From: an uncultured bacterium
Lineage (GTDB): Bacteria; Patescibacteriota; Minisyncoccia; Phycocordibacterales; DATDWN01
Assembly (NCBI GenBank): GCA_903861205.1
Contig: CAIOTC010000020.1
Location: 133,273-197,272 of the forward strand
Length of the DNA stretch: 64,000 nt
Direction of reading: 5' to 3'
Shown here one piece after another: positions 2,009 to 48,126 of the stretch. A program made the position numbers and the translations under genes. How positions within the stretch are numbered: the first letter of the stretch is position 1; each line of letters begins with the position of its first letter. Below the pieces are notes generated by a model. It searched no databases. It saw nothing but the letters and a program-made list of their open reading frames with translations, and was not told the origin of the DNA.

Positions 2009-2416
2009 CTAAACCCCGATTTTCTTTTCTATTTTTAATACCCGCAGATCGATCAATTTCAATTGTTCCCTATTGGCTTTATTATCCGCAATATCATCAA
2101 TCCGTCTTTCAACACCTTGTATTTTATTTGTTAATCTTTCTTCAATATCTTGCAATTCTGTATGCATGTCTTGCATTTCTTTATGCACTTCGCTAAATCC
2201 TCTCGCTGTTGCTATTGCCAAATTATCTATGTCTTTTTTCAACATAACCTCCATTCTATCTGATCTTCTCGCCATCTTCTGGAATTGTAAATCATGCTCA
2301 TTTAATTTCAAATCGATCGAAGTCAGCTTAACATTTACACTATGAAAAACATCATCAATTTTTTCCAAAATAGTTTCTAAAGTTACTTCTTTATTTTTTT
2401 CCTCTTTCTTTTTCAT
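2009..2416 (-). CDS. hypothetical coiled-coil protein
   Basis: 135-aa ORF, heptad-rich, charged, no recognisable motif. Confidence 0.45.
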   Translation of the reverse strand: MKKKEEKNKEVTLETILEKIDDVFHSVNVKLTSIDLKLNEHDLQFQKMARRSDRMEVMLKKDIDNLAIATARGFSEVHKEMQDMHTELQDIEERLTNKIQGVERRIDDIADNKANREQLKLIDLRVLKIEKKIGV

Positions 2417-2456: not shown

Positions 2457-3065
2457 CTAAATATATTTTTTCAGCACTTGAAAATCTTGGAGCAACGTCG
2501 TTTTGTGCGAACCGTTGTAAAGGGCGACAGCGGGATGATATAGGGGCACGATGTGAATTTCGCCGTAGCTCGTGCTAGCTACGAATTCCTTGCCGTGAAT
2601 TTCACTGATCGGACGGAGCATATCAAAAAGGCCAAATTTGTTCATAACATAACCCATGGAAAATCTGCCCAATGTGGCAATGACTTTCGGCTGGATAATT
2701 TCAATCTGCCTGTCCAGAAACGGCGCATACAAAATAATTTCTTCCGGCAAAGGATCGCGGTTTTCTTGCGGGCGGTCCTTGACCACGTTGGTGATATAAA
2801 CGTCGCTTCTGTTCAGTTTGATCGATTCGAGCATTTCGTCGAGGATTCTGCCGGATTGTCCGCAAAAAGGCCGAGCCGTTTGCGCTTCGTTTTTGCCCGG
2901 AGCTTCGCCGACAAACATGATTTTAGCCATGTGACTTCCCTCTCCGACCACCGGATAATATTTGTTTTCGACGCGATATTTGTAGAGCGGAGAATTTTCG
3001 AAATGCAAAAGTTCCTCGCGAATTTGTTTCAATTTTTCAAATCTTTCTTCAAGGCTAAGGGGCAT
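2457..3065 (-). CDS. uracil-DNA glycosylase, family 4
   Basis: Motifs MFVGEAPGKNE and PFCGQSG typical of family-4 UDG. Confidence 0.82.
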   Translation of the reverse strand: MPLSLEERFEKLKQIREELLHFENSPLYKYRVENKYYPVVGEGSHMAKIMFVGEAPGKNEAQTARPFCGQSGRILDEMLESIKLNRSDVYITNVVKDRPQENRDPLPEEIILYAPFLDRQIEIIQPKVIATLGRFSMGYVMNKFGLFDMLRPISEIHGKEFVASTSYGEIHIVPLYHPAVALYNGSHKTTLLQDFQVLKKYI

Positions 3066-6733: not shown

Positions 6734-7981
6734 TTATATCGGCAAGTTTGACGGCGCTTCGGATTTCTTCGAGCCAATGCGTGTGAACGACGGTGAGGTG
6801 GCCAAACCTCCGGCTGGGAAGTGGAAAATCGTCGCTAGTTCCTCAGTGTTCAAAACAAATGACGGTTTTTTGAATTCGTTGTAAAACCAGGCACGATGTT
6901 TATATGAGTTTAACAACTTTCTTTTTTCTTTATCGATTGTTTTCTTTGGCCTTTTTATAAACGGAAAATACTTGTATTCGCCCTCCGGATGCGATTGCGG
7001 TTTAAAACCATTCAAATTGTTTGAGTTGTAATTTTTGAAACCACCCATAATACCAACAGTATTGCCGGCGGAATAAAGGTCTTTGGACGCGGTATATATG
7101 GCACGAATACCGACATCAAAACCAAGTTTAGAAATGCTTCTTTCGATGGCGTGGACAACTTCCTCTTCACCTTTTGTTAAACGTCTAGCTGGCCCCGGCT
7201 TCCCATCTTCGCCCTTCTCGCCTTTTGTTTTTTCAAGAATTTTTTTAATTTCGTCTCCCGCGCCTTTTTCCCACTTTTTATCTATCGGTTTTCCGCCATC
7301 GGGGTTTTTATCTTCCGCTTTGTGTGCACGAATAATAATTTGAATCCATGCTTGGTGTTCTCTGCCGAGAGATCCCATGAATTCTATGAGCGGAGTCATC
7401 GGATCAATTCTGTATTCTTCCTTCGGATCTTTATCCATTCCATAATCAACATATGTTTTTATGGGAAACGGGTCAGGTTTAGTCAGAGCGAACTCTTTGG
7501 CCCACAAACTATTTTTTTCCGGATCATAACTGTAAAGTAAAGTGTAATCCGGCGCTTCATAAACTTCTATGCCGGGAAACTGCGAATACAAACTGGCTTC
7601 GATGACGTTCTTCAAACCTTTGCGAGTCCAAATGAAAAAATGGATCGAGCCATCTATGGAAACAATTTCCAAAGAATACCACGGCCTTGTTTGACCTTTG
7701 AAATTTCTAACCCACCAATCACCCTCCTGGCCTGTTTGGTGCAAACCGTTGAAAAAAATTTCCATGGCCAAAGGCGATTTGAAAATTTCACGCGGGAGTT
7801 TCATTTCCAGCAAAACATATTCTTGCTTGGCAAAAAATTTAGCCCGGACGTATGTAATCCACAACTCCCACAGCAAAATGAAAAGTAGGGCCGGCAACCA
7901 AACAAAAGAGGTTTGGTACAAAATTTTCATCGCCAAAGCAACATGCGGACTTGTGAAAAAGGAGATGAATGGCTGTAACAT
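6734..7981 (-). CDS. hypothetical membrane-anchored protein with Lys/Glu-rich low-complexity segment
   Basis: 415-aa ORF, N-terminal TM helix, no recognisable catalytic motif. Confidence 0.5.
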   Translation of the reverse strand: MLQPFISFFTSPHVALAMKILYQTSFVWLPALLFILLWELWITYVRAKFFAKQEYVLLEMKLPREIFKSPLAMEIFFNGLHQTGQEGDWWVRNFKGQTRPWYSLEIVSIDGSIHFFIWTRKGLKNVIEASLYSQFPGIEVYEAPDYTLLYSYDPEKNSLWAKEFALTKPDPFPIKTYVDYGMDKDPKEEYRIDPMTPLIEFMGSLGREHQAWIQIIIRAHKAEDKNPDGGKPIDKKWEKGAGDEIKKILEKTKGEKGEDGKPGPARRLTKGEEEVVHAIERSISKLGFDVGIRAIYTASKDLYSAGNTVGIMGGFKNYNSNNLNGFKPQSHPEGEYKYFPFIKRPKKTIDKEKRKLLNSYKHRAWFYNEFKKPSFVLNTEELATIFHFPAGGLATSPSFTRIGSKKSEAPSNLPI

Positions 7982-13528: not shown

Positions 13529-14566
13529 TCAAATTCTAAACTCCACAACATCACCATCCTTGACCACATACTCCTTCCCTTCCGTTCTCACAAGCCCTTT
13601 TTCGCGGGCCTTCGCGTAGGAGCCGGCAGAGAGCAGTTTGTCCCATTCGATCACTTCGGCACGAATAAATTTGTCGCGGAAGTCGGTGTGAATGGCCATG
13701 CCAGCCACGGGCGCAGTGCTATCGCGAACAATCGTCCAAGCGCGCGACTCGTCCTCACCGGTCGTGAAATATGTCATCAGGTTCAAAGTCTCGTACGCTT
13801 TTTTGATAAGATCGTCAAAACCTTTTTCAAAAATCGGATCAACTTCGACGTACGGCCCGGGAATTCCCGCCTCGTCGGTGGGCAAATTTTCTTTCACTTC
13901 GGTCAAGTTTTTGGCCGCTGCTTCTGAAGCGTTGAGCACATACAAAATTGGCTTCATGCTCAAAAGTTGCAAAAGTTTTACGTATTCGATTTCCTTTTCG
14001 TCCAAACTAGCAAGAACTGTTCTTGCTAGTTTACTGTCCTCTAAAACTTTTTGGATTTTGGCCAGTGCCTCACCCTCTTCGACCGCTTCTTTTTTGTGAG
14101 ATTTGATATCCTTTTGCAGACCGGCGCGGCGTTTTTCCACCGTCTGCAAGTCCGCTAAAATAAGTTCAAGGTTTATGACCTCAATATCGGAGAGCGGATC
14201 GATTTTATTGTGCACGTGAATGATATCTTTGTCCTCGAAAATCCGCACCACCTCAGCGATGGCATCCACCTCACGAATATTCTGCAAAAATTTATTGCCG
14301 AGCCCCTCACCCATCGATGCGCCCTTGACCAGCCCCGCGATGTCGACAAACTCCACCACGGCCGGAATGGTTTTGGCCGACTTGCTGAACTCCGACAATT
14401 TCCACAGTCGATCGTCCGGCACCGGCACAATCCCGACCGACGGATCAATCGTGCAAAAAGGATAATTCTCCGCCGGCACGGCTTTTTTTGTCAGCGCATT
14501 AAAGAGCGTCGACTTGCCGACGTTCGGGAGGCCCACGATTCCTATACTTAGAGCGGAAGACGTCAT
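13529..14566 (-). CDS. ychF: ribosome-binding ATPase YchF (Obg-like)
   Basis: GIVGLPNVGKSTLFNALT G1 motif; TGS-like C-terminus DGDVVEFRI. Confidence 0.92.
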   Translation of the reverse strand: MTSSALSIGIVGLPNVGKSTLFNALTKKAVPAENYPFCTIDPSVGIVPVPDDRLWKLSEFSKSAKTIPAVVEFVDIAGLVKGASMGEGLGNKFLQNIREVDAIAEVVRIFEDKDIIHVHNKIDPLSDIEVINLELILADLQTVEKRRAGLQKDIKSHKKEAVEEGEALAKIQKVLEDSKLARTVLASLDEKEIEYVKLLQLLSMKPILYVLNASEAAAKNLTEVKENLPTDEAGIPGPYVEVDPIFEKGFDDLIKKAYETLNLMTYFTTGEDESRAWTIVRDSTAPVAGMAIHTDFRDKFIRAEVIEWDKLLSAGSYAKAREKGLVRTEGKEYVVKDGDVVEFRI

Positions 14567-16259
14567 TGTTTTTGTTTAAATTATCGTGTTGTGTAGCGTC
14601 CGAGCCATAGCTATATTCAGGACAGAAGAAGACATAAATTTCGCTTAGATTTATTAGACCGTACACTTGCAAGTCATTGGTGCCAGCCAGCACTTTGTTA
14701 ATAACTTGTCTAATAATGGCCTGTTTTGCTTTAAAATTCAAGCCCTTGAGTTTTTGTAATGCTTCCCCTGCAAACATTTTAACCTCGTCTTCGTTCGGTA
14801 ACAGCACATCATCCTTTGTTACGGCTTCCAAATGAGCTTTGTTTATTTGATCTTCAAATGAACGAATTTTTTCTCGCAAGGGTTTTACATATTCTTCAAA
14901 CTTCTCAAGTGTGATAACTTCCTGAGCATATGCTTTGGCAAAGCGGTCCTCTTGCGATCGCAATTTTACGATTTCTTTTTGCGTCAGATCGGTATCAATT
15001 GACATTTTGTTCAGCACATTATTTCCGCGAGTATTTTTCCATCGCTCGATTTGCTCAAGCAGCAAAGTCGGTGAACTCATAACCTCTTTCATTCTTTCCC
15101 ATACAGCCTCGTCGGCAATTCTGGCGTTGATTCCTGGTTGTTTGCATGTCGGAGGAAATGGAAATGTATGGACACGATTGGTGCATCTGTAATAGAGGTG
15201 TTTGCCTTTCTGCACACCTTCCCCTGCCCTTCTGCCACCACAGACACACCAAATCATGCCAGCCAAGAGATATTCGTTTACTTTGTTTCTGCCAAGAGTC
15301 TCAAAATTCTTTTTCAATCGCAATCCAGCCCGTATAAACAAATCTTTGTCTTCGATAATCGCAGGGACTGTTATCGGGTACCATTCAGTTTTTGGTCTCA
15401 TTTTCCTGCTAGTCTTTTTTATTTTCCTGTACTTTTCAAATTTTTTCGGATTTTCTGGAACTACCGCATATGATGCTCCCCAGTATGTCGTGCCGATAAA
15501 AACCTCGTGTCTTAACAATGTGCTGAGAGTGCTTGTACTCCAAACACCTTTAAGACTTTTTCTTGGTTTTATACCAGTTTTTTGCAACTCTCTGACAACA
15601 CCCCTGACAGTCAATCCATCATCAGCAACCATTTTAAATATATTCTTTATAACATTCGCTTCATATTCGTTGATTTCGTAATGACCGACAACATACTCTG
15701 GAGTTCCGCGTTTTCCTTTGTTTGGAATGTAGTTATAGCCGTATGGAGCTTCGCTGGTCAGGACATGGCCATTTTTAACTCTGCTAATTTTTCCTAATCG
15801 AAATCTTTCTTTGATCTTCATGCGTTCATACTCAGCAAAAACACCTCTCATTTTATACATGATGACATCCTCGTCATTTTTTGGTGGAGGTATAGTAACA
15901 AAAAGTACAGGAATCTCCAGCTCCGATAATTCTTCTATTATCAGTTCTTGCCAAGCACCTCGTCTTGCTAATCGATCTGGGTCATAGGTAAGCACGGCAT
16001 CCCAAATTCTCTTTTTTGCATCAATTCGTAACTGATCAAGATCTGGCCGATACAGTATGTCCCCGCTCCATCCCTCGTCTTTGTATGTTTTAACAATTTC
16101 AAAACCGTGTTCTTTGGCATAAGAATTTACTTCTGCTAGTTGGACCTCAATTGTCTGTTGGTCCTCCTGATTTGAGGTTGAGACCCTTGCATACAAGGCT
16201 ACGAATTTGATGTTTTTTTGTGTTAATTCAATCATGGTTTTGTTGTTATATTTTAGCAA
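14499..16259 (-). CDS. large serine recombinase / integrase (resolvase domain + recombinase domain + zinc ribbon); C-terminus overlaps the ychF 5' end by about 68 nt
   Basis: ALYARVSTSNQ catalytic Ser motif; CVCGGRR...YYRCTNR zinc ribbon; long coiled-coil C-terminus. Confidence 0.85.
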   Translation of the reverse strand: MLKYNNKTMIELTQKNIKFVALYARVSTSNQEDQQTIEVQLAEVNSYAKEHGFEIVKTYKDEGWSGDILYRPDLDQLRIDAKKRIWDAVLTYDPDRLARRGAWQELIIEELSELEIPVLFVTIPPPKNDEDVIMYKMRGVFAEYERMKIKERFRLGKISRVKNGHVLTSEAPYGYNYIPNKGKRGTPEYVVGHYEINEYEANVIKNIFKMVADDGLTVRGVVRELQKTGIKPRKSLKGVWSTSTLSTLLRHEVFIGTTYWGASYAVVPENPKKFEKYRKIKKTSRKMRPKTEWYPITVPAIIEDKDLFIRAGLRLKKNFETLGRNKVNEYLLAGMIWCVCGGRRAGEGVQKGKHLYYRCTNRVHTFPFPPTCKQPGINARIADEAVWERMKEVMSSPTLLLEQIERWKNTRGNNVLNKMSIDTDLTQKEIVKLRSQEDRFAKAYAQEVITLEKFEEYVKPLREKIRSFEDQINKAHLEAVTKDDVLLPNEDEVKMFAGEALQKLKGLNFKAKQAIIRQVINKVLAGTNDLQVYGLINLSEIYVFFCPEYSYGSDATQHDNLNKNNDVFRSKYRNRGPPERRQVDAL

Positions 16260-16265
16260 ATAATT

Positions 16266-16481
16266 TTAAATATTGTCTTGTCGACTTATACCCCTATCCT
16301 TCAGCACCTCCTCGAACAGAATGTCAAAAGCGTTATTAATTCGCTCTTCCACATTGTCATCCTCCATCCAATATGTCACATGCAATCCTTGGACCACGGC
16401 AGAATCAAAAGTTACTTTGTCTTTTGCATTTAGCAAATCAACACAGAACACTTCCAACACCTCATTTTCTAAATTACTCAT
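16266..16481 (-). CDS. small acidic hypothetical protein (possible recombination directionality factor)
   Basis: 71-aa ORF immediately upstream of the recombinase. Confidence 0.3.
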   Translation of the reverse strand: MSNLENEVLEVFCVDLLNAKDKVTFDSAVVQGLHVTYWMEDDNVEERINNAFDILFEEVLKDRGISRQDNI

Positions 16482-16559: not shown

Positions 16560-17420
16560 TTAATTTCGGTTGGACTGCCGAGTGTTCCAACTGTCAATGA
16601 ATTCGGCGATTTCGGCGTTGTCCTTCTCCCACCTCGACATCTGGTTTAGGAACAGGTCCATGTCCAGTTTTCGACGGATGGCTTCTTCCAGCCTTTCCGA
16701 TATAATGTTTGGTGGCAGGGCGTCGAGTTCGTACGCGTTTTCAAAGCCGTACCTCTCGACATACTGGCGGGTCCTCGGATCCTTCGGTTTTACTGGATTT
16801 GGCAGCAAATCGTAGTCTGTGATGTCCTCGAAGGTCAGCAGGACTCTTTGAACCTCGACTTCCACATGGAAAACTTCTTCCATCTTGGTTTTGATGTCCC
16901 GTTCAATGTCTAGCCCAGAAGGATCAAAGTCGCCCATGTAGAGAATCACACCTGGCTTGTCCTGCTCCCGTATCCGTTCGGCGGCGTCATACAGAGCCGA
17001 ACTGCTTCGGTAGCCACCGCCAGCCAGCAATGGCACATCGTATTTGTTGATAATATGGCTAATTGCAACGGCTTTTTCGCACCACACTTCCGTATAGTTC
17101 GGTTGTCCTTGCTGTAGGCTTCGTTTGTACGACTGGCCGACAGTCACGAAAAATGACTTTGGGCTTGTCCATGATGGTGTTTTCTCGGGTTGTCGCCTGA
17201 GGTCGATTATACTTTCCCAGGAGACCATTCCTCGCTCGCGAAGCCTCGAAAGCTTGCCCGAGAGGTTAGTGTAGACATTCCTGGCGTTCTTCAGTCCGAT
17301 GGAAACCAGCCGATAGTAGACTTGTCTCAATGTCAGCGGAACGTTGTATTCCGCCAGGATTTTGTTAACTTTTTCCGCCAAATCAACGTTTTTGAACGGA
17401 AATTTATATCGAATTGTCAT
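16560..17420 (-). CDS. stand-alone topoisomerase VI subunit A / Spo11-like protein ('Mini-A'-type)
   Basis: 5Y-CAP motif TLRQVYYRL; Toprim VWCEKAV and MGDFDPSGLDI (DxD). Confidence 0.65.
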   Translation of the reverse strand: MTIRYKFPFKNVDLAEKVNKILAEYNVPLTLRQVYYRLVSIGLKNARNVYTNLSGKLSRLRERGMVSWESIIDLRRQPEKTPSWTSPKSFFVTVGQSYKRSLQQGQPNYTEVWCEKAVAISHIINKYDVPLLAGGGYRSSSALYDAAERIREQDKPGVILYMGDFDPSGLDIERDIKTKMEEVFHVEVEVQRVLLTFEDITDYDLLPNPVKPKDPRTRQYVERYGFENAYELDALPPNIISERLEEAIRRKLDMDLFLNQMSRWEKDNAEIAEFIDSWNTRQSNRN

Positions 17421-17708
17421 AATAGTTTGCAAATTAATGATAATTTTGCGGTCCGTCGCCGCCGATCCAGACTTGTCCAGTTTTTGAAAAAGCAAAAACC
17501 CCATCTATTACGCGGTAGGAATATCCACAGACCTACCACGCAAGAGATGGGGTTCATTGTGGATATTTCCAAAAAAATAGAGAACAATCGCTATTTTGGG
17601 CGTTTTTCGACTAAAATGGTGCCAAAAGTTGCTTTTCCAAAAGAGAACGGTCCGAAGCAGTTTCAGACCTGACCAACACCGAAATAGTTAATATTCATAC
17701 TTGTCATC

Positions 17709-17724
17709 GATTATACTACAGTCC
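17709..17724 (-). promoter_or_regulatory. element-specific promoter motif GGGACTgTAGTATAAT (copy 1), about 290 nt upstream of the Mini-A gene
   Basis: Conserved 16-mer containing a TATAAT -10 box. Confidence 0.45.
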
Positions 17725-17755
17725 CAAAACACTCTCCTAACCAGCTGATTAAGGA

Positions 17756-18130
17756 TTATTTTTCTGAATTTCTGGCCTGAATGTTCGCCAGTTCTTCATA
17801 ACCGAATTTTTCTCGGCATCCGTCGCAGACATTTCGAAGTTCGTCCGTCTGCTTTATTCCCTGTTTGAATAATCCTCGCCAGAAGTGATCAAAACAAAAT
17901 TTTTCTCCACATTCCCAACATTTGGCCAGCGGATTAAGGTAGCTTTGCCTGCTCTTGCATTTTGCACATCGAGAACGCGGTATAGATGCCAGTCTTTGCC
18001 TCTCGCTGACGGTCATTTTCGTTAATACATTTGTCATATGAGTAAAGTTAACTAATTGATAATCTGATTTGAAAATGTTTGTCGGCGGAACGATTTTTTT
18101 AATCAAACTGTCCGCCAACACGATTTTCAT
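17756..18130 (-). CDS. small zinc-ribbon protein (hypothetical)
   Basis: CAKCKS...CWECGEKFC and CDGC Cys pairs. Confidence 0.35.
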   Translation of the reverse strand: MKIVLADSLIKKIVPPTNIFKSDYQLVNFTHMTNVLTKMTVSERQRLASIPRSRCAKCKSRQSYLNPLAKCWECGEKFCFDHFWRGLFKQGIKQTDELRNVCDGCREKFGYEELANIQARNSEK

Positions 18131-18871
18131 AATTTCATTTCATATTTTTCATATTCATTTCCATAGGACGAGCCCCCCTTTCCAGAAAAAAGCTGGAAGT
18201 GGTTATTTTTTCCACGAGATGCCAAACTAGAAAGAAGAGACGCCAAACACGTATGTCGGCTGATTACATTCACATTTGTGCAACCAACACACCTATTGAG
18301 TTCAAAATAGAAATTCTGTGTCCAGCTGGTTGCTTTCACACAATTCCTTTGTTCTTCGTTTTCAAGCAACATCGTTTTATAAATCAAACTCCCATCAACT
18401 CAGTTTCGCATCACTGATCCTTTCCAGCTGTAGTCAAAATCTTGAAAGCGAAGGCACCATTGAAGGTGGACGAAACTTTCAGAAAACCCACTACAAATCC
18501 CGTGTGAAAGCAACGGGCACTTTAACGAAATAGTTGGTCACTTAAATCCCTCACTCTTTAGACTGCCTGGCAGCTTGGGCGACTCGTCGGGGCTCGCTGT
18601 TCCCCAGGCTTTCGCAAGAATGAACGATTCAAATGCTTATGCCATAATTGGCATTTCTTCGATGTTTCAAAGCCACGCTGTTTCTACTGACTTATCCCCA
18701 CCATTTGCAGGACTTTTGATATGGTTGTCCTGATCCATATTTTGAGTTTGAATTGTAAAAAACACATCCACTAAGTCAGCCGAGAAAGCCAACTTTTTTC
18801 TATATAATAGTTAAATATTCATATTTATGGCTTAAACATTGCCTTTTTAGCAAGTTTTACCATTTGGTTTT

Positions 18872-18887
18872 AATTATACTAAAGTCC
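18872..18887 (-). promoter_or_regulatory. promoter motif GGGACTTTAGTATAAT (copy 2), facing a 740-nt ORF-free region
   Basis: Identical 16-mer. Confidence 0.45.
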
Positions 18888-19016
18888 CAAATACTTCTCC
18901 TAATTTTCAGCCAAGCCTGTGGAATTTCAATCCGTGGGAAAGCTAACTGAGACCGATTCGGAGTTTTCCGAGTGATCAAAATAATTCAAAAAACACAAAA
19001 AATTTCAGAATTCGTC

Positions 19017-19577
19017 CTATTTTTCAGACATTCGAGTGATTATGGCCTCCAATGACCGAGCTTCTTCCACAACATCAGTCAAACCGATTTTCAAACAATT
19101 ATTCAGAAACTTTTCGTATCTTTTGGTGTAAACGCTCCGATACCAGATTCTCGAGGTCATTCTTTCTTGTTGGTAAATCAGTTTCAAAATCTTTTTGGCA
19201 CGAATTAAGACTTGTCCTTGTTTGGAATGAGGATTGAAGTTTTGATATTTAATTCCATGACAATTTTTGCAAAGAAAAATATGTCCGTCTGGTAAAAGAA
19301 AAAGCTTGTGGCATCGACAGTCACATTTGTTGCAATGAAAATATGTCCTATCTCCAAAATAGGTTTCCAAAGTTTCGGTTAGGATTTTTTGTGGTGTGTT
19401 TTCACCTACGACTACATTCAAGTAATAATCGTCACCAATCTTTTCATATTGATAATTAATGTCGTGTCGCTCGTAATCTCTGATAATGTTATCGCCAATT
19501 TTTCTTGGTCGAAACCAGCTATCATCAGTGCGTTTTGCTGTAAGGCAAAAACAATTTTCAATATATGGTCCAGTCAT
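19017..19577 (-). CDS. Cys-rich hypothetical protein (zinc-finger-like); start set at the Met 7 nt downstream of a TATAAT box
   Basis: CNKCDCRCHK...CKNCHG; upstream GGGACTTTAGTATAAT motif directly abuts the ATG. Confidence 0.45.
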   Translation of the reverse strand: MTGPYIENCFCLTAKRTDDSWFRPRKIGDNIIRDYERHDINYQYEKIGDDYYLNVVVGENTPQKILTETLETYFGDRTYFHCNKCDCRCHKLFLLPDGHIFLCKNCHGIKYQNFNPHSKQGQVLIRAKKILKLIYQQERMTSRIWYRSVYTKRYEKFLNNCLKIGLTDVVEEARSLEAIITRMSEK

Positions 19578-19584
19578 GCCTAAC

Positions 19585-19600
19585 ATTATACTAAAGTCCC
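19585..19600 (-). promoter_or_regulatory. promoter motif GGGACTTTAGTATAAT (copy 3), 7 nt upstream of the ATG of the Cys-rich gene (leaderless)
   Basis: Identical 16-mer; TATAAT-gttaggc-ATG. Confidence 0.5.
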
Positions 19601-20020
19601 AATATCCGAGAAAAATGTGGAAAATTTGCAGATTGAATTAGAAGTAGCCACCATATCTACACAGGATGATTAGTTCCACCGACGCATGGAGCTTATCCCC
19701 CAGAGCTTTATTCGTCAGTAAAAAAGCTAAAATCTGTCGGAGAATTTTTTTGCCAAAACAATTGTTTACGGCGTGAATAATCCGAGACAACCACCCATGT
19801 TACTTTTCAAATTTGGAGTCGCAGACACAAACGGTACCGCAACCATAGAGGATAACAAATCTCGTATGGTACCAAATAGACCACCCCCCCGCCAGTGCCT
19901 AAGACACTGCGTGACGAGCAAGGGAGCTAAAACTAAGCAGGTGAGAAGTAAAAAATTAAAAATAAAACCAATACTTCTCGCACGACCAGTCATCGTGTGG
20001 TTTTTTTATTATTAATAATT

Positions 20021-20368
20021 ATGATGAAAAGCATAAGCAAAATCATCGAAGATGGTCCTGTCACAGAATATAAAAATTCTCAGGAAACGCTCGCTCTCGT
20101 ATCAGAGCAAATTAAGGCTCGTTGGGGTGAGTCGGAGTTGAAAAACTACGATCCATTCCACAACGCCAGGACATTTCAGTCTTGGCTCAAGTTGGGGTTT
20201 AGGGTCCGCAAAGGTGAGAAAGCCCTTAGGTCGATTACGTATGTGCAAACCACCGATGCTGACGGCAACATAATCAAGAAGTATCGTAGGCCAGTGTACC
20301 TTTTTTATGTAAGGCAGGTCGAGAGAATCGGCGAACGAAAATCATATGAAGAAGACATTGACGATTAG
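20021..20368 (+). CDS. ArdC N-terminal-domain-like (DUF1738-like) ssDNA-binding protein
   Basis: ARTFQSWLKLGFRVRKGEKAL...VYLFYVRQV resembles the ArdC N-terminal domain. Confidence 0.5.
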   Translation: MMKSISKIIEDGPVTEYKNSQETLALVSEQIKARWGESELKNYDPFHNARTFQSWLKLGFRVRKGEKALRSITYVQTTDADGNIIKKYRRPVYLFYVRQVERIGERKSYEEDIDD

Positions 20369-21175: not shown

Positions 21176-21421
21176 ATGATTACAAACACAATGACAGCTA
21201 GTTTTGAAAGCCCAAAAAGAAATTTTGTTTTTCCGCATGTTGATTATGTTGGCAATGACAAACCAATTGATGACAGACAGCGGTCCATTTTACTGGACTT
21301 AATTTTTCAGAAAGCCATTGATTCAACAGAAAGAGAAATGTGGTTAAATCAAGTTGACGGACTATCCAGCGAAGAGGCCGAGTCGTTCATTTTTGCTTTA
21401 ATCACAAATTCCTGGAAGTGA
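21176..21421 (+). CDS. hypothetical small protein
   Basis: 81-aa ORF. Confidence 0.3.
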   Translation: MITNTMTASFESPKRNFVFPHVDYVGNDKPIDDRQRSILLDLIFQKAIDSTEREMWLNQVDGLSSEEAESFIFALITNSWK

Positions 21422-21491
21422 TGGCAAAATAGTCAAACAAAAAGGCGGCACTTCACGGTGTCGTTTTTTTGTGATATTATAATATAGTTTT

Positions 21492-33084: not shown

Positions 33085-33780
33085 TTAATGTCCAGCTAAT
33101 AATATTTTAATGTGGTCGAGGACGTTTTGGGAAGCAGATTGGTAGTCGGAAACAGAGAGTCCCCGCAAGAATGGTTCTTGCGGAAAAAGTTCTTGTGGAA
33201 AAATTGGTTTGCCGATTGTTATGATTACTTTTCTTTGGCGGGTAAAAAATTCTCTCCAGGACATGTGGAAAAATGTATCGATAGCAATGGGCACGACCGT
33301 GGCCTGCGTGGCGTGTGCCAAAAATCCGAGGCCCCCGCGAGCCGGATTCATGTGGCCGTCGCGCGTACATTTACCCTCCGGAAAAATTTGGACAGTACTT
33401 CCTGATTTTAAAGCTACGACAAAATCTGCCAAAGAAACGGAATAATCTTTATACCCGGAATAAACAGAATATCCGCCAAGCACGCTAAAAAAAGCTCCGC
33501 CGTATATGTATCCTCTCCAGCCTATCGTTTTATATTTTTCTTTTGGTTTGGCGACATAATAAATTGGCCACATTGGTGAAAAAAAAGGCAATACCTGCGG
33601 CATCGCCGTTACATCTAGCTCACATGTATGATTTGAAGCCAAAATTATCGGTCCGGTCAAACCTAAAAGATTTTCTCGCCCGCGAATTTCAATGCGAACG
33701 AATATTTTGTACAAAATAAAAAAAACAACATAACCGATTTTCTGAAAAATTATTGGGGAATAATAATGGAAAGATCTCAT
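33085..33780 (-). CDS. plsC: 1-acyl-sn-glycerol-3-phosphate acyltransferase
   Basis: NHTCELD (HxxxxD) and IFPEGKCTRDG motifs. Confidence 0.8.
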   Translation of the reverse strand: MRSFHYYSPIIFQKIGYVVFFILYKIFVRIEIRGRENLLGLTGPIILASNHTCELDVTAMPQVLPFFSPMWPIYYVAKPKEKYKTIGWRGYIYGGAFFSVLGGYSVYSGYKDYSVSLADFVVALKSGSTVQIFPEGKCTRDGHMNPARGGLGFLAHATQATVVPIAIDTFFHMSWREFFTRQRKVIITIGKPIFPQELFPQEPFLRGLSVSDYQSASQNVLDHIKILLAGH

Positions 33781-33874: not shown

Positions 33875-35125
33875 TTATTCGTAGCGGAGCGCTTCTATCG
33901 GATCCATCTTTGCTGCCGAGCGTGCCGGAAAAACTCCGAAAAATATTCCGATGACGGCCGAAACACCGAAGCCCAAAACGATAGCATAAAACGGCACGGA
34001 AAATGCCCAGGCCAAATGGGCCGAGGCGGCGGCAATGGAAACCACCCAGCCCAGGAACGCGCCGAAAGCGATGCCAACAATCCCGCCAAAAATTGTCACC
34101 AAAACAGCTTCAAGCAAAAATTCGTTCAAAATGTCCGCTTCTCGCGCGCCAAGCGCTTTTTTGAGTCCGATTTCGGACGTGCGCTCGGTCACCACCACGT
34201 ACATGATGTTCATAATCCCAACTCCGCCGACCAAGAGCGAGATGGCCGCGATGGCGATGAGTAGATACGTGATACCGTTAAAAATGGTGTTAAACGTGTC
34301 CATGGCTTGTGCTTGCGATTGCACGACAAAGTCGTCTTTGGCCGGATCGGTGATGTTGTGATTGTGCTCCATGAGTGAATTTATTTGGGCGATGGTCGAA
34401 TCGGCCGCGTTCAAATCGGACAGTTCCACGATGCCAACTGAAATGTAATCGATGCCGAGCATTTTTCTCTGGGCCGTAACAAGTGGCATAAAAACAATGT
34501 TGTCCGACTCGGAAAGCGCGCCCTGCGTTTCGTAAACGCCGACCACTTGAAAATTTAAATTGCCGAGACGCAAAAGTTTGCCGATCGGATCGTCCTGACC
34601 AAAAAGATCCTTAGCGATCGTAGCCCCGAGAATCACCACTTGCGCGCCACCGGTATCCTCGGCTTGCGTGTAAAAGCGACCCTCGGCTAATTTGGTTTTG
34701 TCGATGTTGAAACGCTCAGCCGACGCGCCGTAATAAATAGTGCTTTTTTTGTTATCGCGATAACTGGCAAGGGCTTGCCCGGTAACAATGCCGTAGTCGT
34801 CAACCACACCGGAAAGTTTTTTGATATCGTCGAGATCGCGCTGTTTGAAACTGCTCACAACCACGCCGGAAAAAGCCGAGGAGAGGCCGGCTTGCGAAGC
34901 CGAGGCGGCCCGATTTTTGGTCGTTGGCGGAACGCGAATTTTGATGAAAAGCGTGTTACTGCCGAAAGCTTCGACTTGCGCGTTGATGAGCGAACGGAAG
35001 CCGGCGCCGGCCGAGAGCACTAAAATAACCGTGCTGATGCCAATGATAATCCCGAGCATGGTCAAAGCCGTCCGACCGGGATTCGAACGCAAGGCTTTGA
35101 TGGATTGTTTCAAGGCGGTAAGCAT
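33875..35125 (-). CDS. ABC transporter permease, MacB/FtsX family
   Basis: N-terminal TM, large periplasmic domain, C-terminal FtsX 3-TM bundle. Confidence 0.85.
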   Translation of the reverse strand: MLTALKQSIKALRSNPGRTALTMLGIIIGISTVILVLSAGAGFRSLINAQVEAFGSNTLFIKIRVPPTTKNRAASASQAGLSSAFSGVVVSSFKQRDLDDIKKLSGVVDDYGIVTGQALASYRDNKKSTIYYGASAERFNIDKTKLAEGRFYTQAEDTGGAQVVILGATIAKDLFGQDDPIGKLLRLGNLNFQVVGVYETQGALSESDNIVFMPLVTAQRKMLGIDYISVGIVELSDLNAADSTIAQINSLMEHNHNITDPAKDDFVVQSQAQAMDTFNTIFNGITYLLIAIAAISLLVGGVGIMNIMYVVVTERTSEIGLKKALGAREADILNEFLLEAVLVTIFGGIVGIAFGAFLGWVVSIAAASAHLAWAFSVPFYAIVLGFGVSAVIGIFFGVFPARSAAKMDPIEALRYE

Positions 35126-35216: not shown

Positions 35217-36488
35217 TTATTCATATCTCAGTGCCTCAATCGGATCGAGTTTCGCCGCTTTGTACGACGGATACAAACCGAAAATAACGCCTGTCAAAAT
35301 GGAAACCCCGACAGCAGAAATAATCGACATTGGCGAAATAACAAAAGCCCAATCGTAACCGAGATATTGCATCAAAATGGCCATGAGGAAAGAAACAATC
35401 GCGCCGAGAACAATTCCGATGAATCCTCCGATCGATGTCAGTGTGCCGGCCTCGAGCAAAAATTGGTTTCGGACATTTGAATTCGTCGCGCCAACCGCTT
35501 TGCGCAAACCGATCTCGCGTGTTCTCTCGGCCACCGTCACCAGCATAATATTGAGAATGCCGATACCGCCGACGAGAAGCGCGATGGCCGCCATCGACGT
35601 CAAAAATAAACTCAAAGCCGAGGTGATGGTGGTGAGCAGCGAAACCGCCGTGGCCGTACTGCGCACAGTAAAATCGATATTGTCGATACTTTGAATGTGA
35701 TGTGTCTGCGACAAAACTCTGGTAACGTCGGCAATAGTTTGATCGATATTTTCCGAGGCATCAACTTTCAAATTGATGGCTTGCAAATAATGGATGCCGA
35801 GAAGCTGTCCTTGGCCAATGGCTATTGGCAAAAAAACTTGGTCGTCTTGGTCCTGGAAAAAAACTGTACCGCGAGGAGTGACCACGCCGACAACGCGCAG
35901 TGGAACTCCGCCGGGTTGCGACTGCGAAGCACTGCGAACTTTGACCACTTGTCCAATCGGATCAACACCGGTGCCGGCGAAAAGTTCGTTGGCCACCGTT
36001 GAACCGAGCACGACAACATTGGCTCCCCCGTCAGCGTCTTGCGGCGCCATGAATTGGCCTTCTTGCATCGTAATATTGACCACTTTGGTGTAACCGGAAT
36101 CGGTCCCGACGAAATTTGTGTCCGCGGTTTTGTTTTGCCAAGCCACGGTCACCGTTCCGCGCACCAAGGAGTTGACCGCGACTGAATGCGGAACATTTGT
36201 CGGACTACGCAGAGCGTCGGCGTCAGTGTTAACAAGCGAGGTTGTAATAATTCCGTAAACTTGCGCCGGCGGACCTTTCGGATCGCTCGCGCCCGGTTGG
36301 ATGGAAAGTAAATTCGAACCAAGCTTGTTGACCTGACCAAGCACCAGAGTCTGCGCTCCGGCGCCGAGAGAAATGATAATAATAACTCCAGCCACCCCAA
36401 TAACAATACCGAGCATGGTCAAAAACGACCGGCCCTTGCGCGCCATTAAATTGCGAATGGTCATTTTGATGGTGGAAAGAAAGTTCAT
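35217..36488 (-). CDS. ABC transporter permease, MacB/FtsX family (tandem paralog)
   Basis: Same architecture as 33875..35125; C-terminus KLDPIEALRYE shared. Confidence 0.85.
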   Translation of the reverse strand: MNFLSTIKMTIRNLMARKGRSFLTMLGIVIGVAGVIIIISLGAGAQTLVLGQVNKLGSNLLSIQPGASDPKGPPAQVYGIITTSLVNTDADALRSPTNVPHSVAVNSLVRGTVTVAWQNKTADTNFVGTDSGYTKVVNITMQEGQFMAPQDADGGANVVVLGSTVANELFAGTGVDPIGQVVKVRSASQSQPGGVPLRVVGVVTPRGTVFFQDQDDQVFLPIAIGQGQLLGIHYLQAINLKVDASENIDQTIADVTRVLSQTHHIQSIDNIDFTVRSTATAVSLLTTITSALSLFLTSMAAIALLVGGIGILNIMLVTVAERTREIGLRKAVGATNSNVRNQFLLEAGTLTSIGGFIGIVLGAIVSFLMAILMQYLGYDWAFVISPMSIISAVGVSILTGVIFGLYPSYKAAKLDPIEALRYE

Positions 36489-41552: not shown

Positions 41553-42116
41553 TTACCTCGTCTCGTAACCCTGCACAAGCTCGCCGATTTCCATATTTTT
41601 TTCGTCCAAATGAACCCAGATGCTTTTCCCGAGCGACGGTTGAACAGCAAAACTCTCGCCTGGATTTCTGTCAGCGTAGTTAACCACCGCTACGCCTTTT
41701 TGAATTTCGATATTTTGCGGAGCGATTCTGTCGCCGACAAACATGGCGTTTGTCCCTTTGTACACACCGCCTTTATTTATTGCCTCAACCACGTAAAAAA
41801 ATGTTCCGCTGCCACCAGAGTTCTCGGTCAAATACATCACTGCGTCACTCACTCCATCGCCATTTAGGTCGCCGTAAACCGGCTGGCCGAAAACCGCCAC
41901 ATTATCTTTTTCCGCTTTGCCGTTTACCAGCCTAAAATATTTTCCGGCAACATTGTAAGTGATATTGAGCGGATCGTTTTTGACCGTTTTCGTTTTGTCA
42001 TATTTCAAAATAAAATTGACCACATTCCCAACCCACAATTTCTGCGTGGCTAAAAGTCCGAGCCCGATGATTATCAAAACCAAAAGCACGATTTGAAGCG
42101 TTTTGTTGTTTGTCAT
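41553..42116 (-). CDS. hypothetical membrane-anchored protein
   Basis: N-terminal TM, soluble beta-rich domain. Confidence 0.45.
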   Translation of the reverse strand: MTNNKTLQIVLLVLIIIGLGLLATQKLWVGNVVNFILKYDKTKTVKNDPLNITYNVAGKYFRLVNGKAEKDNVAVFGQPVYGDLNGDGVSDAVMYLTENSGGSGTFFYVVEAINKGGVYKGTNAMFVGDRIAPQNIEIQKGVAVVNYADRNPGESFAVQPSLGKSIWVHLDEKNMEIGELVQGYETR

Positions 42117-44591: not shown

Positions 44592-45203
44592 TTACAACCC
44601 AAATTTTTTCAGTCGTGAACGAATAGCGCCGGGGTTGCGGCCGAACATAACAGAAAGTTCCTTTATTGTCTTACTTTTCTCAATTCCTAGTTTTTCCAAC
44701 TCAATATCCTCCTCACCCGTCCATGGTTTGTAAGCGTTTTGATACTTCGCTCGTTGCTTTTCCAAAATTTCAAAAAATTTTTTAGGTAGAAACGTATTCA
44801 TAATTTTAATATTGCCTTCCAATATTATAGGAGTCATGCCGCGAATTTCGTCGGCAAAAATACAGTCAGGAATAGGGTTGTAAAGAAAAATTTTTTTATT
44901 CAGCAAAAAAGCGTTATGGATCTCCAGAAAAGTTGCGCCTCCGATATAATTCTGAATCCCTTTCTTTTCTAAATTTAAAACCAAAATCGCATCATGTCGA
45001 GAAATTATCTCGTAATCTTTTTTGAGCATTTCCTTTTTCCAATTTTCACTTTCCTCTTTACTTTTATTTTTCATTTCCTCTTCCATTCCCGGGGAATCAT
45101 AACCGTTCGGCATAGTTAGTTTATGCCCCATGGATTCAAGCTCCGGAACAATTTCCGGTATTTTGTGGTAATGATATTTGCTGGCACAAATAAAAATTTT
45201 CAT
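44592..45203 (-). CDS. nucleoside 2-deoxyribosyltransferase-like (Rossmann) domain protein with C-terminal HTH-like tail
   Basis: IGGATFLEIHNAF resembles the NDT DSGTxFExG motif; C-terminal TIKELSVMFGRNPGAIRSRLKKFG. Confidence 0.4.
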   Translation of the reverse strand: MKIFICASKYHYHKIPEIVPELESMGHKLTMPNGYDSPGMEEEMKNKSKEESENWKKEMLKKDYEIISRHDAILVLNLEKKGIQNYIGGATFLEIHNAFLLNKKIFLYNPIPDCIFADEIRGMTPIILEGNIKIMNTFLPKKFFEILEKQRAKYQNAYKPWTGEEDIELEKLGIEKSKTIKELSVMFGRNPGAIRSRLKKFGL

Positions 45204-47572: not shown

Positions 47573-48126
47573 TAGTTTCCCTTATGCAAATCCTCTTCTT
47601 CGTAATAGTACGATTGCTCAATGCCCTTCATGTAAACTTCGCGATCGTCTATTTTGTCAGTCAAAGAGCCGCGCAGAAGTTCGCGGATTTCCAAACTGTT
47701 AATGGGACTGCGTTGCATGGCGTTCAGATAATCCTGTTTGTCAACTTTGGCCCAATCGACGCACTTCTTCAGATTCTTTTTCAAAATCAAATCCAACCAA
47801 ATCCGCATGCTTCGGCCGTTGCCCTCCATAAAAGGATGTGCGATGTTCATTTCCACGTATTTGACCACTATCTCTTCAAAGGTATGCTCGGGCATTTTCT
47901 CTACCTTAGCCAAACTTTCCACCAGATATAAATGAGAGGCAAAGCGAAAACCGCCCTTGCTCAAATCTTTATCGCGAATTTCTCCAGCAAAGCCATACAG
48001 ACCGCCAAAGAGATGGGTATGGATCTGTTGCAAGCCCCTGGTGGTGCCGACTTCAAAACTATCGATCTCCCGACTGCCAAAAAGTTTTATAGCTCGCTCT
48101 TTACTGATTGCATCAATATTTTCCAT
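47572..48126 (-). CDS. Fic/Doc family protein (AMPylation-type Fic domain)
   Basis: [12 protein letters not shown] = HPFx(D/E)GNGR Fic motif. Confidence 0.85.

What the first reader, a model, noticed from the sequence alone, without database searches (positions are those of the whole stretch)
17709..19600. Three copies of a 16-nt promoter-like motif GGGACTTTAGTATAAT inside the mobile element, one implying a leaderless start and one facing a long ORF-free region
Identical (or 1-mismatch) 16-mers occur at 17709-17724, 18872-18887 and 19585-19600, all on the minus strand. Copy 3 places TATAAT 7 nt upstream of an ATG, so the true start of the Cys-rich gene is Met4 of the annotated ORF and its mRNA is leaderless. 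Copy 2 points into about 740 bp with no ORF, which could be an element-encoded ncRNA or a long structured 5' UTR for the zinc-ribbon gene. Copy 1 lies about 290 nt upstream of the Mini-A gene, and the intervening leader contains nested perfect hairpins (about 17480-17560). A conserved -10-proximal motif like this is typical of phage or plasmid promoter classes recognised by a dedicated sigma factor or activator.
Basis: seen in the sequence. Interest (0 to 1): 0.5.

Follow-up and report, generated by a model that had tools for sequence, protein, structure and literature searches.

The report
Element-specific promoter repeated three times
Three copies of a 16-18 nt motif in a small integrated element of a Parcubacteria (CPR) genome are very probably real promoters of a type conserved across a whole family of such elements, and they lead into a leaderless gene, a long structured non-coding RNA and a switchable terminator in front of the Mini-A/integrase operon.

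Summary
GGGACT(T/G)TAGTATAAT occurs three times on the minus strand (17710-17725, 18873-18888, 19585-19600), nowhere else in 64 kb, against 0.00 expected.

In 16 related elements the same motif, [G/A]G[G/T]ACT-N4-TAnAAT, lies 6-8 nt before the ATG of the Cys-rich gene. G-21, A-19, C-18, T-12, A-11 and T-7 are invariant. Homologues start at Met4, so the leaderless reading is supported.

It is the host norm, though: 23 of 60 host genes have TAnnnT 5-9 nt before their ATG.

A second motif copy follows that gene in nearly every element and opens an ORF-free stretch. These stretches fold far better than shuffled alignments. A model built from two relatives finds window 18540-18634(-) as its best hit in the window. 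No Rfam family matches.

Copy 1 starts a roughly 215-nt leader that ends in a 23-bp terminator. Its loop pairs with its 5' flank, and both helices covary in four elements.

No sigma factor is encoded. The -10 part is host-type; only GGGACT (-22 to -17) is element-specific. What reads it is unknown; the linked Cys-rich protein is one candidate.

Verdict: real, functional and moderately interesting. It is a new variant of known kinds.

The parts
19585..19602 (-). Promoter P_A (copy 3). GGGACT is at 19600-19595 and the -10 TATAAT at 19590-19585. The predicted start is at or next to the ATG at 19577.
   Evidence: The same motif lies 6-8 nt before the ATG of the homologous gene in 16 loci.
19017..19577 (-). 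Cys-rich protein gene (186 aa from Met4), probably translated from a leaderless mRNA. Its function is unknown.
18873..18890 (-). Promoter P_B2 (copy 2). The -10 is at 18878-18873 and the predicted start is near 18866.
   Evidence: A second motif copy lies 100-170 nt after the Cys-rich gene in L010, L011, L016, L018, L023, L024, L025, L026, L029 and L036.
18823..18865 (-). 5'-terminal stem-loop of the copy-2 transcript. It is an insertion relative to other elements, lying between the -10 and the box.
18806..18823 (-). Box TATGAATATTTAACTATT (family consensus TATGAATATAAAYTAT).
   Evidence: The box follows P_B sites in most elements and occurs three times in the L018 leader.
18131..18866 (-). 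Non-coding structured RNA or long leader transcribed from copy 2. It includes a candidate pseudoknot at 18708-18740 and the P1-P2 domain at 18540-18634.
   Evidence: Single-sequence z = -4.5. 73-77% nucleotide identity to L010. Model R1, built from L026 and L036, gives its best hit in the whole window here: 19.8 bits, E 0.0025, 22 of 23 pairs. No Rfam hit.
18127..18372 (-). 81-aa ORF with an ATGA overlap onto the next gene. It is probably not a conserved gene.
   Evidence: No homologue of similar size in 1.84 billion representatives. No tblastn hit in any related locus.
17756..18130 (-). 124-aa zinc-ribbon protein gene.
   Evidence: Weak FYVE and AN1 zinc-finger matches. A 43% homologue in L016 lies directly after that element's P_B leader.
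17710..17727 (-). Promoter P_B1 (copy 1). The -10 is at 17715-17710 and the predicted start is near 17703.
17683..17699 (-). Box TATGAATATTAACTATT, 10 nt after the -10 of copy 1.
17486..17566 (-). Switchable intrinsic terminator of the Mini-A leader. A is 17566-17558, B is 17555-17532, A' (in the loop) is 17529-17521, B' is 17519-17496 and the U-tract is 17498-17486.
   Evidence: Leader z = -6.9. Conserved in L018, L024 and L029 with 99% of cells paired against about 50% in slid controls, and 4 pairs changed on both sides. A:A' is kept by different sequences in L029.
16560..17420 (-). Mini-A (topoisomerase VI A-like) gene. The true start is ATG 17420. The longer ORF from 17504 begins inside the terminator.
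   Evidence: phrog_6247 at 1.6e-55, matched from residue 35. Homologues are 275-292 aa long.
14499..16481 (-). 71-aa gene (16266-16481) and large serine recombinase gene (14499-16259). This is the end of the operon and abuts ychF.
   Evidence: Resolvase, Recombinase and Zn_ribbon_recom domains. The same gene order next to ychF is found in L018 and L029.

Best explanation
The three copies are working promoters of a class specific to one family of small integrative elements of Parcubacteria.

Each promoter has a -10 hexamer and, in most relatives, the TG extension. Both are used exactly as in the host's own, mostly leaderless, promoters, so host RNA polymerase with its primary sigma factor most likely initiates there (inferred). 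There is no -35 hexamer. Instead, an invariant G-AC(T) block sits at -22 to -17, the position of the spacer 'Z-element' that can replace a -35. This block gives the class its identity. It either strengthens polymerase binding directly or is the docking site of an element protein (undecided).

The three promoters are arranged in tandem on one strand.
- P_A starts a leaderless mRNA at Met4 of a Cys-rich protein of unknown fold.
- P_B2 starts a roughly 735-nt non-coding, structured RNA that runs into the zinc-ribbon gene.
- P_B1 starts a roughly 215-nt leader. Its 23-bp terminator (B:B') competes with a helix (A:A') between the terminator loop and its 5' flank. Transcription into Mini-A, the 71-aa gene and the serine recombinase gene is therefore probably set by termination versus read-through (inferred from anatomy and covariation).

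A second conserved box (TATGAATATAAAYTAT) just after the P_B promoters is probably a protein-binding site.
For: The motif is unique to the element in the 64-kb window, with 0.00 matches expected by chance.

In 16 independent loci (52-68% protein identity, plus L029 at 28%) it lies 6 nt (11 loci), 7 nt (4) or 8 nt (1) before the ATG. G-21, A-19, C-18, T-12, A-11 and T-7 are invariant, while the flanks are unalignable.

A position-weight-matrix scan of 232 kb of related loci finds strong sites only in intergenic DNA, co-oriented with the downstream genes.

Sites without TG all have at least 5 of 6 matches to TATAAT. Sites with TG tolerate weak -10 hexamers (one-sided p = 0.002).

Host genes: 23 of 60 have TAnnnT ending 5-9 nt before the ATG, against 6.7% at random positions, and 11 of those 23 also have TG.

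All homologues of the Cys-rich protein start at Met4.

Terminator: stems of -31 to -41 kcal/mol followed by a U-tract in 4 elements. The nascent RNA folds A:A' at -13 to -15 kcal/mol.

RNA after P_B: RNAalifold z = -8.4 and -9.1 against column shuffles, and the forward strand folds far better than the reverse complement. A model built from one subfamily hits another at the homologous place.

The Z-element lies at -22 to -18 and can substitute for a -35 when the -10 is strong (PMC3173786).
Against: No transcription start has been mapped, so every start site is inferred from geometry.

The three window copies lack the TG dinucleotide (they have AG), so they are not extended -10 promoters in the strict sense.

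GGGAC does not resemble the published Z-element sequences (AACCT, AACAT).

The weak -10 hexamers of many P_B sites in relatives (TATCCT, TAACCT, TATGCT) could mean that an activator is needed.

Compensatory-pair counts for two-sequence alignments were not above the shuffles for L026/L036 (13 against 11.8). The window/L010 pair gave only z = -2.3 and no strand asymmetry.

The terminator switch has no identified trigger.
Confidence: 0.7

Rival explanations
1. The promoters need an element-encoded factor that binds GGGACT. The obvious candidate is the Cys-rich 186-aa protein made from P_A, which would activate (or repress) its own promoter and the P_B promoters, like a phage middle or late activator. 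This overlaps with the best explanation. The difference is that host polymerase alone would not suffice.
For: GGGACT is as conserved as the -10 hexamer yet absent from the host promoters in the window. Among loci fetched through Mini-A, the two that carry a homologue of the Cys-rich gene (L028, L029) have the motif. L030 and L035 have neither, and L034 has one weak site. Many P_B sites in relatives have poor -10 hexamers. The protein has a four-cysteine zinc ribbon and is always the first gene after P_A.
Against: The protein has no DNA-binding fold or family match. The co-occurrence test rests on five loci, with flanks of only 7 kb. The motif matrix was itself built from sites next to this gene, so linkage may only reflect a module inherited together. 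A single 5-6 bp block without a repeat or palindrome is a small target for a specific DNA-binding protein.
Confidence: 0.3
2. A dedicated sigma factor or element-encoded polymerase reads the motif, as for phage or plasmid promoter classes.
For: It is a strongly conserved 16-18 nt motif limited to the element.
Against: No sigma or polymerase domain was found in any element ORF with Pfam, PHROGs or NCBIfam. The only trace is a 12-bit, E = 0.09 match of the 81-aa protein at 21176-21421, which Pfam does not confirm. The -10 hexamer, the TG extension and the -10-to-ATG spacing are identical to those of host genes.
Confidence: 0.05
3. The repeats are not promoters but DNA sites for recombination, replication (iterons) or packaging. 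The TATAAT resemblance would be a by-product of AT-rich sequence.
For: There are three direct repeats inside a mobile element. A separate repeated box (TATGAATATAAAYTAT) does look like a protein-binding site.
Against: The fixed 6-8 nt distance to a conserved start codon in 16 loci, the invariance of exactly the T-12, A-11 and T-7 positions, and the TG versus -10 compensation are all properties of promoters. The sites always point at genes or conserved RNAs.
Confidence: 0.04
4. The ORF-free stretch after copy 2 is the element's replication origin. The transcript would serve as a primer or pre-primer RNA (ColE1 RNA II-like), not as a regulatory leader or a trans-acting RNA.
For: The 7-kb element has no recognisable initiator or primase. 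An ORF-free stretch of 280-1145 nt after the Cys-rich gene, opened by a promoter, is conserved in all loci. The RNA is long and structured.
Against: No iterons, AT-rich unwinding region or DnaA-box-like repeats were noticed. In L016 and L024 the equivalent promoter is followed by only about 160-200 nt before a gene. The transcript runs straight into coding genes.
Confidence: 0.08

Closest known systems
Extended -10 (TGnTATAAT) sigma-70-family promoters without a -35 element
   Same: The family consensus is T-17, R-16, T-15, G-14, n, TAnAAT with no -35 hexamer. A weak -10 is compensated by TG. The host's own promoters have the same form.
   Different: The three window copies have AG instead of TG. 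All members carry an extra invariant G-AC block at -21 to -18 that ordinary extended -10 promoters, and the host promoters here, lack.
-10/Z-element promoters (beta' zipper contact with the spacer at -22 to -18; Yuzenkova et al. 2011, PMC3173786)
   Same: A conserved element exactly at -22 to -18, four bases upstream of the -10, in promoters that have a strong -10 and no -35.
   Different: The sequence is GGGAC, AGGAC or GGTAC rather than AACCT or AACAT. Zipper dependence is untested. The published Z-element consensus is loose, whereas this block is nearly invariant.
Leaderless mRNAs whose promoter -10 lies just upstream of the start codon (known from Actinobacteria and Deinococcus; established knowledge, e.g. 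the Cortes et al. 2013 reference seen)
   Same: TAnAAT lies 6-8 nt before the ATG with no Shine-Dalgarno sequence. This holds both in the element and in about 38% of host genes in the window.
   Different: The lineage is different (Parcubacteria). Nothing mechanistically new is implied.
Terminator/antiterminator leaders (transcription attenuation) in front of mobile-element integration or transfer genes
   Same: A promoter-proximal leader ends in a strong intrinsic terminator with a conserved competing helix, upstream of the Mini-A/recombinase operon.
   Different: The competing helix does not share a strand with the terminator. It pairs the terminator loop with the 5' flank (A-B-A'-B'), so exclusion is topological. 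No leader peptide, ligand or protein trigger has been identified.
Promoter classes of Thermus phage P23-45 and gp39 (PMC3950348)
   Same: A mobile element uses host RNA polymerase while its own factor alters which promoters the polymerase prefers. That the favoured P23-45 promoters are -35-less extended -10 promoters is my recollection; only the paper's abstract and outline were read.
   Different: No homologue of gp39 or gp76 is present. Any factor here is hypothetical.
LOOT RNA (Rfam RF03000)
   Same: It is a structured RNA carried by the same family of elements: L011, L016, L018, L021 and L029, at 66-79 bits.
   Different: It lies at a different place, near the divergent ArdC-like gene. It is not preceded by GGGACT and is absent from the window. 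It is unrelated to the RNAs after P_B.

Membership tests
Extended -10 sigma-70-type promoter | -10 hexamer TAnnnT at the right distance from the start | tested here: met
   TATAAT in all three copies. T-12, A-11 and T-7 are invariant in 16 P_A sites.
Extended -10 sigma-70-type promoter | TG at -15/-14 | tested here: not met
   The window copies read TTAG or GTAG before TATAAT. TG is present in 24 of the 34 sites listed for the family, all three window copies included. The family consensus is therefore extended -10, but the window copies are -10 plus GGGACT only.
Extended -10 sigma-70-type promoter | No functional -35 hexamer at 16-18 nt | tested here: met
   The consensus scan did not call any of the three sites. 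The hexamers at 17 nt are TTTCTC and AGGAGA.
Extended -10 sigma-70-type promoter | Transcription starts 6-8 nt downstream of the -10 | not testable with these tools
   No transcript data are available.
-10/Z-element promoter | Conserved spacer element at -22 to -18 | tested here: met
   [G/A]G[G/T]AC occupies -22 to -18 in 16 of 16 P_A sites (L015 has C at -22). The position is as defined in PMC3173786.
-10/Z-element promoter | Sequence resembling AACCT or AACAT | tested here: not met
   GGGAC shares at most two positions with those sequences.
-10/Z-element promoter | Dependence on the beta' zipper | not testable with these tools
   This needs in vitro transcription.
Leaderless mRNA | Start codon at or within a few nt of the transcription start, with no Shine-Dalgarno sequence | tested here: met
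   TATAAT-GTTAGGC-ATG. The spacing is 6-8 nt in 16 loci, and homologues start at this Met. The start site itself is inferred.
Intrinsic terminator with competing helix (attenuator) | G+C-containing stem followed by a U-tract, conserved with covariation | tested here: met
   -31 to -41 kcal/mol in 4 loci. 99.1% of cells are paired and 4 pairs changed on both sides, against 46-57% paired in slid controls.
Intrinsic terminator with competing helix (attenuator) | Conserved mutually exclusive alternative pairing | tested here: met
   ATATCCACA/TGTGGATAT in three loci and AATATTCTTTAAA/TTTAAAGAATATT in L029. The nascent RNA folds this helix.
Intrinsic terminator with competing helix (attenuator) | Regulated read-through | not testable with these tools
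   This needs Term-seq or reporters.
Promoter class read by an element-encoded sigma factor | A sigma factor or polymerase gene in the element | tested here: not met
   No such domain in any element ORF.
Promoter class read by an element-encoded sigma factor | A -10/-35 logic different from the host's | tested here: not met
   The -10, the TG extension and the spacing equal those of host genes.
Any described RNA family (Rfam 15) for the copy-2 RNA and the Mini-A leader | Covariance-model match | tested here: not met
   No match at gathering score in the window. Nothing relevant up to E = 10 in 17300-20100. No match over the equivalent regions of 12 related loci.

The most novel reading that the evidence does not exclude
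The GGGACT promoters, the always-linked Cys-rich protein of unknown fold, the 450-700-nt structured RNAs that follow it and the loop-to-flank terminator switch may together form an undescribed regulatory circuit of Parcubacterial integrative elements. In this reading the Cys-rich protein is a new kind of transcription factor that directs host polymerase to -35-less GGGACT promoters. The long RNAs would be a new class of large structured RNA (cis-acting antiterminator or trans-acting) that decides whether Mini-A and the integrase are made.
Probability: 0.2. Interest if true: 0.65.

Novelty: new variant of a known kind. Interest (0 to 1): 0.4.

Why it matters
Almost nothing is known experimentally about transcription signals in Candidate Phyla Radiation bacteria or their mobile elements. 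This locus gives a sharply defined, comparatively validated promoter consensus. It also shows that the host uses leaderless, extended -10 promoters as its standard. In addition it yields three concrete test objects: a -22 to -17 promoter block, an unusual terminator switch and an unannotated long structured RNA family. It corrects two gene starts (the Cys-rich gene at Met4 and Mini-A at 17420). It would help annotate similar elements in metagenomes.

Tried and rejected
- Close relatives in viral contigs: none for Mini-A, the zinc-ribbon protein or the Cys-rich protein, and no match for a 25-nt RNA pattern.
- Genome-contig scan with the Cys-rich protein alignment: nothing.
- Exact-protein look-ups first returned only identical copies of the window (L001-L008), which are useless for covariation.
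- Phage DNA search with the RNA region: no match.
- PDB profile search, NCBIfam and relaxed Pfam searches: nothing meaningful.
- Global MAFFT alignment of all P_B RNAs did not give a structurally consistent alignment. I therefore could not build one model for all subfamilies.
- Model R1 with default filters missed the window RNA. With filters off it did not find L011 or L023 at the place I had picked by eye. The link of that subfamily to the others rests only on a shared GGGAATGCTG-helix-ATG pattern read by eye.
- One model search was wasted on a too-strict threshold and returned reverse-strand rows.
- I considered that the box ATGAATAT starts a leaderless mini-ORF. I rejected this because copy 2 has a stop at codon 4, the distance to the -10 varies from about 0 to 49 nt, and L018 has a copy after the terminator.
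- I considered the 81-aa ORF a real gene because of its ATGA overlap. I rejected it as a conserved gene.
- L021's GCGAAAGC hairpin looked similar to the P2 region, but it is only a GNRA tetraloop hairpin.
- The search for attachment-site repeats gave only a 9-nt repeat.
Full report
**Observation.** GGGACTTTAGTATAAT occurs on the minus strand at 18873-18888 and 19585-19600, and with one mismatch at 17710-17725. No other match with up to three mismatches exists in the 64-kb window. With up to one mismatch, 100 dinucleotide-preserving shuffles gave none. Shorter cores (GGGAC-N5-TATAAT, TAGTATAAT) are also essentially confined to these sites. Copies 1 and 2 are alike over 31 nt. All three lie between genes and point the same way as the genes.

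**Setting.** The region from about 14.5 to 21.5 kb is a small integrated element. On the minus strand it carries these genes:
- a large serine recombinase (14499-16259), abutting ychF;
- a 71-aa gene;
- Mini-A (phrog_6247, 1.6e-55);
- a 124-aa zinc-ribbon protein;
- a 186/189-aa Cys-rich protein.

An ArdC-N-like gene and three small genes lie on the plus strand. Homologues of Mini-A and of the Cys-rich protein come from Parcubacteria MAGs (Paceibacterota, Moranbacteria, Nomurabacteria, Taylorbacteria). The same ychF-recombinase-Mini-A arrangement recurs in L018 and L029 with different cargo. Eight metagenome contigs are identical to the window, and one of them ends at window position 21476.

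**Comparative test of the motif.** I fetched diverged loci that encode homologues of the Cys-rich protein (52-68% identity, L029 28%) or of Mini-A.
- In 16 of 16 loci where the Cys-rich gene's upstream DNA is available (L028's gene follows another gene directly), the ATG is preceded by [G/A]G[G/T]ACT-N4-TAnAAT.
- G-21, A-19, C-18, T-12, A-11 and T-7 are invariant, T-17 is present in 15 of 16, and TG occupies -15/-14 in 11 of 16.
- The -10-to-ATG distance is 6 nt (11 loci), 7 nt (4) or 8 nt (1).
- The sequence on either side cannot be aligned.

A weight matrix made from these sites finds a second site 100-170 nt after the stop of the Cys-rich gene in nearly every locus, and a further one ahead of the Mini-A or recombinase operon where that is present. 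It finds nothing of similar score in coding DNA or in the host part of the window. Across the 34 sites listed for the family (the three window copies included), the 10 that lack TG all have 5-6 matches to TATAAT. The 24 with TG tolerate 3-4 matches (one-sided Mann-Whitney p = 0.002). This trade-off, the fixed distance to a conserved start codon and conservation of exactly the -10 key positions are what a promoter predicts. A recombination or replication site does not predict them.

**Leaderless start.** All 23 homologues of the Cys-rich protein begin at the residue aligned with Met4 (M-x3-YIENCF), and the public protein for this very locus is 186 aa. TATAAT-GTTAGGC-ATG leaves no room for a ribosome-binding site.

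It is not a peculiarity of the element, however. Of 60 crude host gene calls in the window, 23 have TAnnnT ending 5-9 nt before the first ATG (mostly 6 nt). Random positions give 6.7%. Eleven of the 23 also have TG at -15/-14. Leaderless, extended -10 promoters are therefore the host's standard. The element uses the host's -10 logic and adds GGGACT, which these host promoters lack.

**What reads GGGACT.** No ORF of the element matches a sigma factor or polymerase. The block occupies -22 to -17. Yuzenkova et al. localised a spacer 'Z-element' to -22 to -18, four bases upstream of the -10. The beta' zipper reads it, and it can replace the -35 when the -10 is strong (PMC3173786). The position fits; the sequence (AACCT, AACAT) does not.

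**Copy 2 and the ORF-free stretch.** In every locus the Cys-rich gene is followed by 280-1145 nt without a called gene. In the window the only sizeable ORF there (81 aa, ATGA overlap with the zinc-ribbon gene) has no homologue of comparable length among 1.84 billion representatives and none in the related loci.
- It folds better than shuffles (z = -4.5).
- It is 73-77% identical at the nucleotide level to the truncated L010, whose protein is only 61% identical.
- Read by eye from that alignment, two interleaved helices at 18708-18740 keep pairing through changes on both sides.
- For the two other subfamilies, RNAalifold consensus energies are 8-9 standard deviations below column-shuffled alignments. 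They are much better on the transcribed strand than on its complement (L026/L036: -69.7 against -32.4; L011/L023: -80.2 against -61.1).
- Raw counts of compensatory pairs were above shuffles only for L011/L023. The window/L010 pair reached only z = -2.3.
- A covariance model of an 83-nt P1-P2 domain, built from L026 and L036 only, gives its best hit in the whole window (both strands, filters off) at 18540-18634 on the minus strand. The score is 19.8 bits and E 0.0025, and 22 of 23 pairs form. The next hit scores 13.4 bits.
- No Rfam family matches here or in the equivalent regions of 12 related loci.

I conclude that copy 2 drives a conserved structured RNA. Whether it acts in cis as a leader of the zinc-ribbon gene, in trans, or as a replication primer cannot be told from sequence.

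**Copy 1 and the Mini-A leader.** The annotated Mini-A ORF from 17504 begins inside a hairpin. Family matches and homologue lengths place the start at 17420. From the predicted start near 17703 the leader folds with z = -6.9. Its core is a 23-bp stem (17555-17532 with 17519-17496) followed by UUUUUGCUUUUU.

The same structure precedes Mini-A in L018 and L029, and precedes the small-gene/recombinase pair in L024. On the four-sequence alignment 99.1% of cells are paired, against 46-57% with slid partners. Four pairs change on both sides, and the covariation score is reached by 1 of 500 shuffles.

The terminator loop is complementary to the nine bases just 5' of the stem (ATATCCACA/TGTGGATAT). 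In L029 both partners are replaced by a different complementary pair (AATATTCTTTAAA/TTTAAAGAATATT). RNA truncated before the 3' arm folds this helix at -13 to -15 kcal/mol. The full RNA folds the terminator at -31 to -41 kcal/mol. The order is A-B-A'-B', with only 2 nt in the window (0-3 nt in the other loci) between A and a 23-bp stem. The two helices therefore cannot coexist (my inference from helix geometry). I read this as a kinetic or factor-dependent termination switch controlling Mini-A and the integrase. The trigger is unknown.

**The box.** TATGAATATT(T)AACTATT follows copies 1 and 2, and its consensus TATGAATATAAAYTAT follows most P_B sites. Its distance from the -10 ranges from overlapping to 49 nt. 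L018 has three copies in one leader, one of them after the terminator. L036 has three tandem ATGAA(C/T)GTT units. That pattern suits a protein-binding site better than a transcript 5'-end signal or a mini-ORF.

**Verdict.** The finding is real and the promoter reading is well supported by comparative evidence. The leaderless start is right but ordinary for this host. The 'dedicated sigma' idea is not supported. The parts that are new are the family-specific GGGACT block at the Z-element position, the loop-to-flank terminator switch and the unannotated long structured RNAs. They are variants of known kinds of things, and none has been shown experimentally.

Noticed in passing
window, host genes, e.g. 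the upstream regions of the genes at 2009-2416(-), 6734-7981(-), 41553-42116(-), 44592-45203(-), 47572-48126(-), 50411-50866(-) and 61038-62429(+): The host itself is rich in leaderless genes. TGnTAnAAT sits about 6 nt before the ATG. 23 of 60 genes have TAnnnT 5-9 nt upstream, against 6.7% at random positions. The DNA just upstream of TG tends to be G-rich (GGAGGTG, GGATGTG).
   Followed up: partly
window, directly upstream of the ATG of the genes at 2457-3065(-), 33085-33780(-), 33875-35125(-), 35217-36488(-), 55401-55844(-) and 59134-60564(+): A second, very different class of upstream region. It consists of 50-60 nt of phased A/T repeats (TTTAAATT and AAAAATT units, e.g. 'ttttaaattggaaaattttaaattcattttaaattataaattttaaattaaaaattcatc').
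   Followed up: no
L016 4680-4799(+), L011 627-750(+), L029 4894-5013(-), L018 7290-7404(+), L021 5726-5841(+): Rfam LOOT RNA (RF03000, 66-79 bits against a gathering score of 46.4) is carried by five related elements. In the four loci where an ArdC-N-like gene was found (L016, L018, L021, L029) it lies within about 1 kb of that gene. It is not preceded by GGGACT, and the window's element has no LOOT hit. This ties LOOT RNAs to this family of Parcubacterial mobile elements.
   Followed up: partly
window 14499-14566; L018 1627-1694; L029 10125-10192: The 3' end of the serine recombinase gene overlaps the 5' end of ychF by 68 nt in three different hosts. The attachment site therefore seems to lie inside both reading frames, with the element supplying the N-terminus of YchF. 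YchF is reported to regulate translation of leaderless mRNA (PMC12641178), and this host is rich in leaderless genes.
   Followed up: partly
window 14483-14491 and 21464-21472: A 9-nt direct repeat ACAAAAAAA (minus strand) lies at both presumed ends of the element, and contig L002 ends at window 21476. A separate 7488-bp contig carries the same genes. This is a possible attachment core, giving an element of about 7 kb. No remnant of a ychF 5' end was seen at the right end, so this is unproven.
   Followed up: partly
window 17683-17699 and 18806-18823 (-); L018 5416, 5602 and 5659 (-): The conserved box TATGAATATAAAYTAT follows the P_B promoters at variable distance and is repeated three times in the L018 leader. 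L036 has three tandem ATGAA(C/T)GTT units. It is probably a protein-binding site.
   Followed up: partly
window 19603-19996: The 394-nt divergent intergenic region between P_A and the ArdC-N-like gene has no similarity to any related locus and contains a spurious-looking 75-aa ORF. It also holds a hairpin with a T-run at 19978-20000(+), just before the ArdC-like gene. No GGGACT motif points into the plus-strand operon, so that operon uses another promoter.
   Followed up: partly
window 16560-17504 (-): The longest Mini-A ORF starts at 17504, inside the 3' arm and U-tract of the terminator. The real start is almost certainly ATG 17420. Gene callers on the identical contigs used the long form (314 aa).
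   Followed up: yes
L035 (10.9 kb): This related element shares the Mini-A, ArdC-like, 197-aa, 81-aa and 67-aa genes and adds primase- and polymerase-like genes. It has neither the Cys-rich gene nor any GGGACT site. It is a natural 'minus' control for the module.
   Followed up: partly
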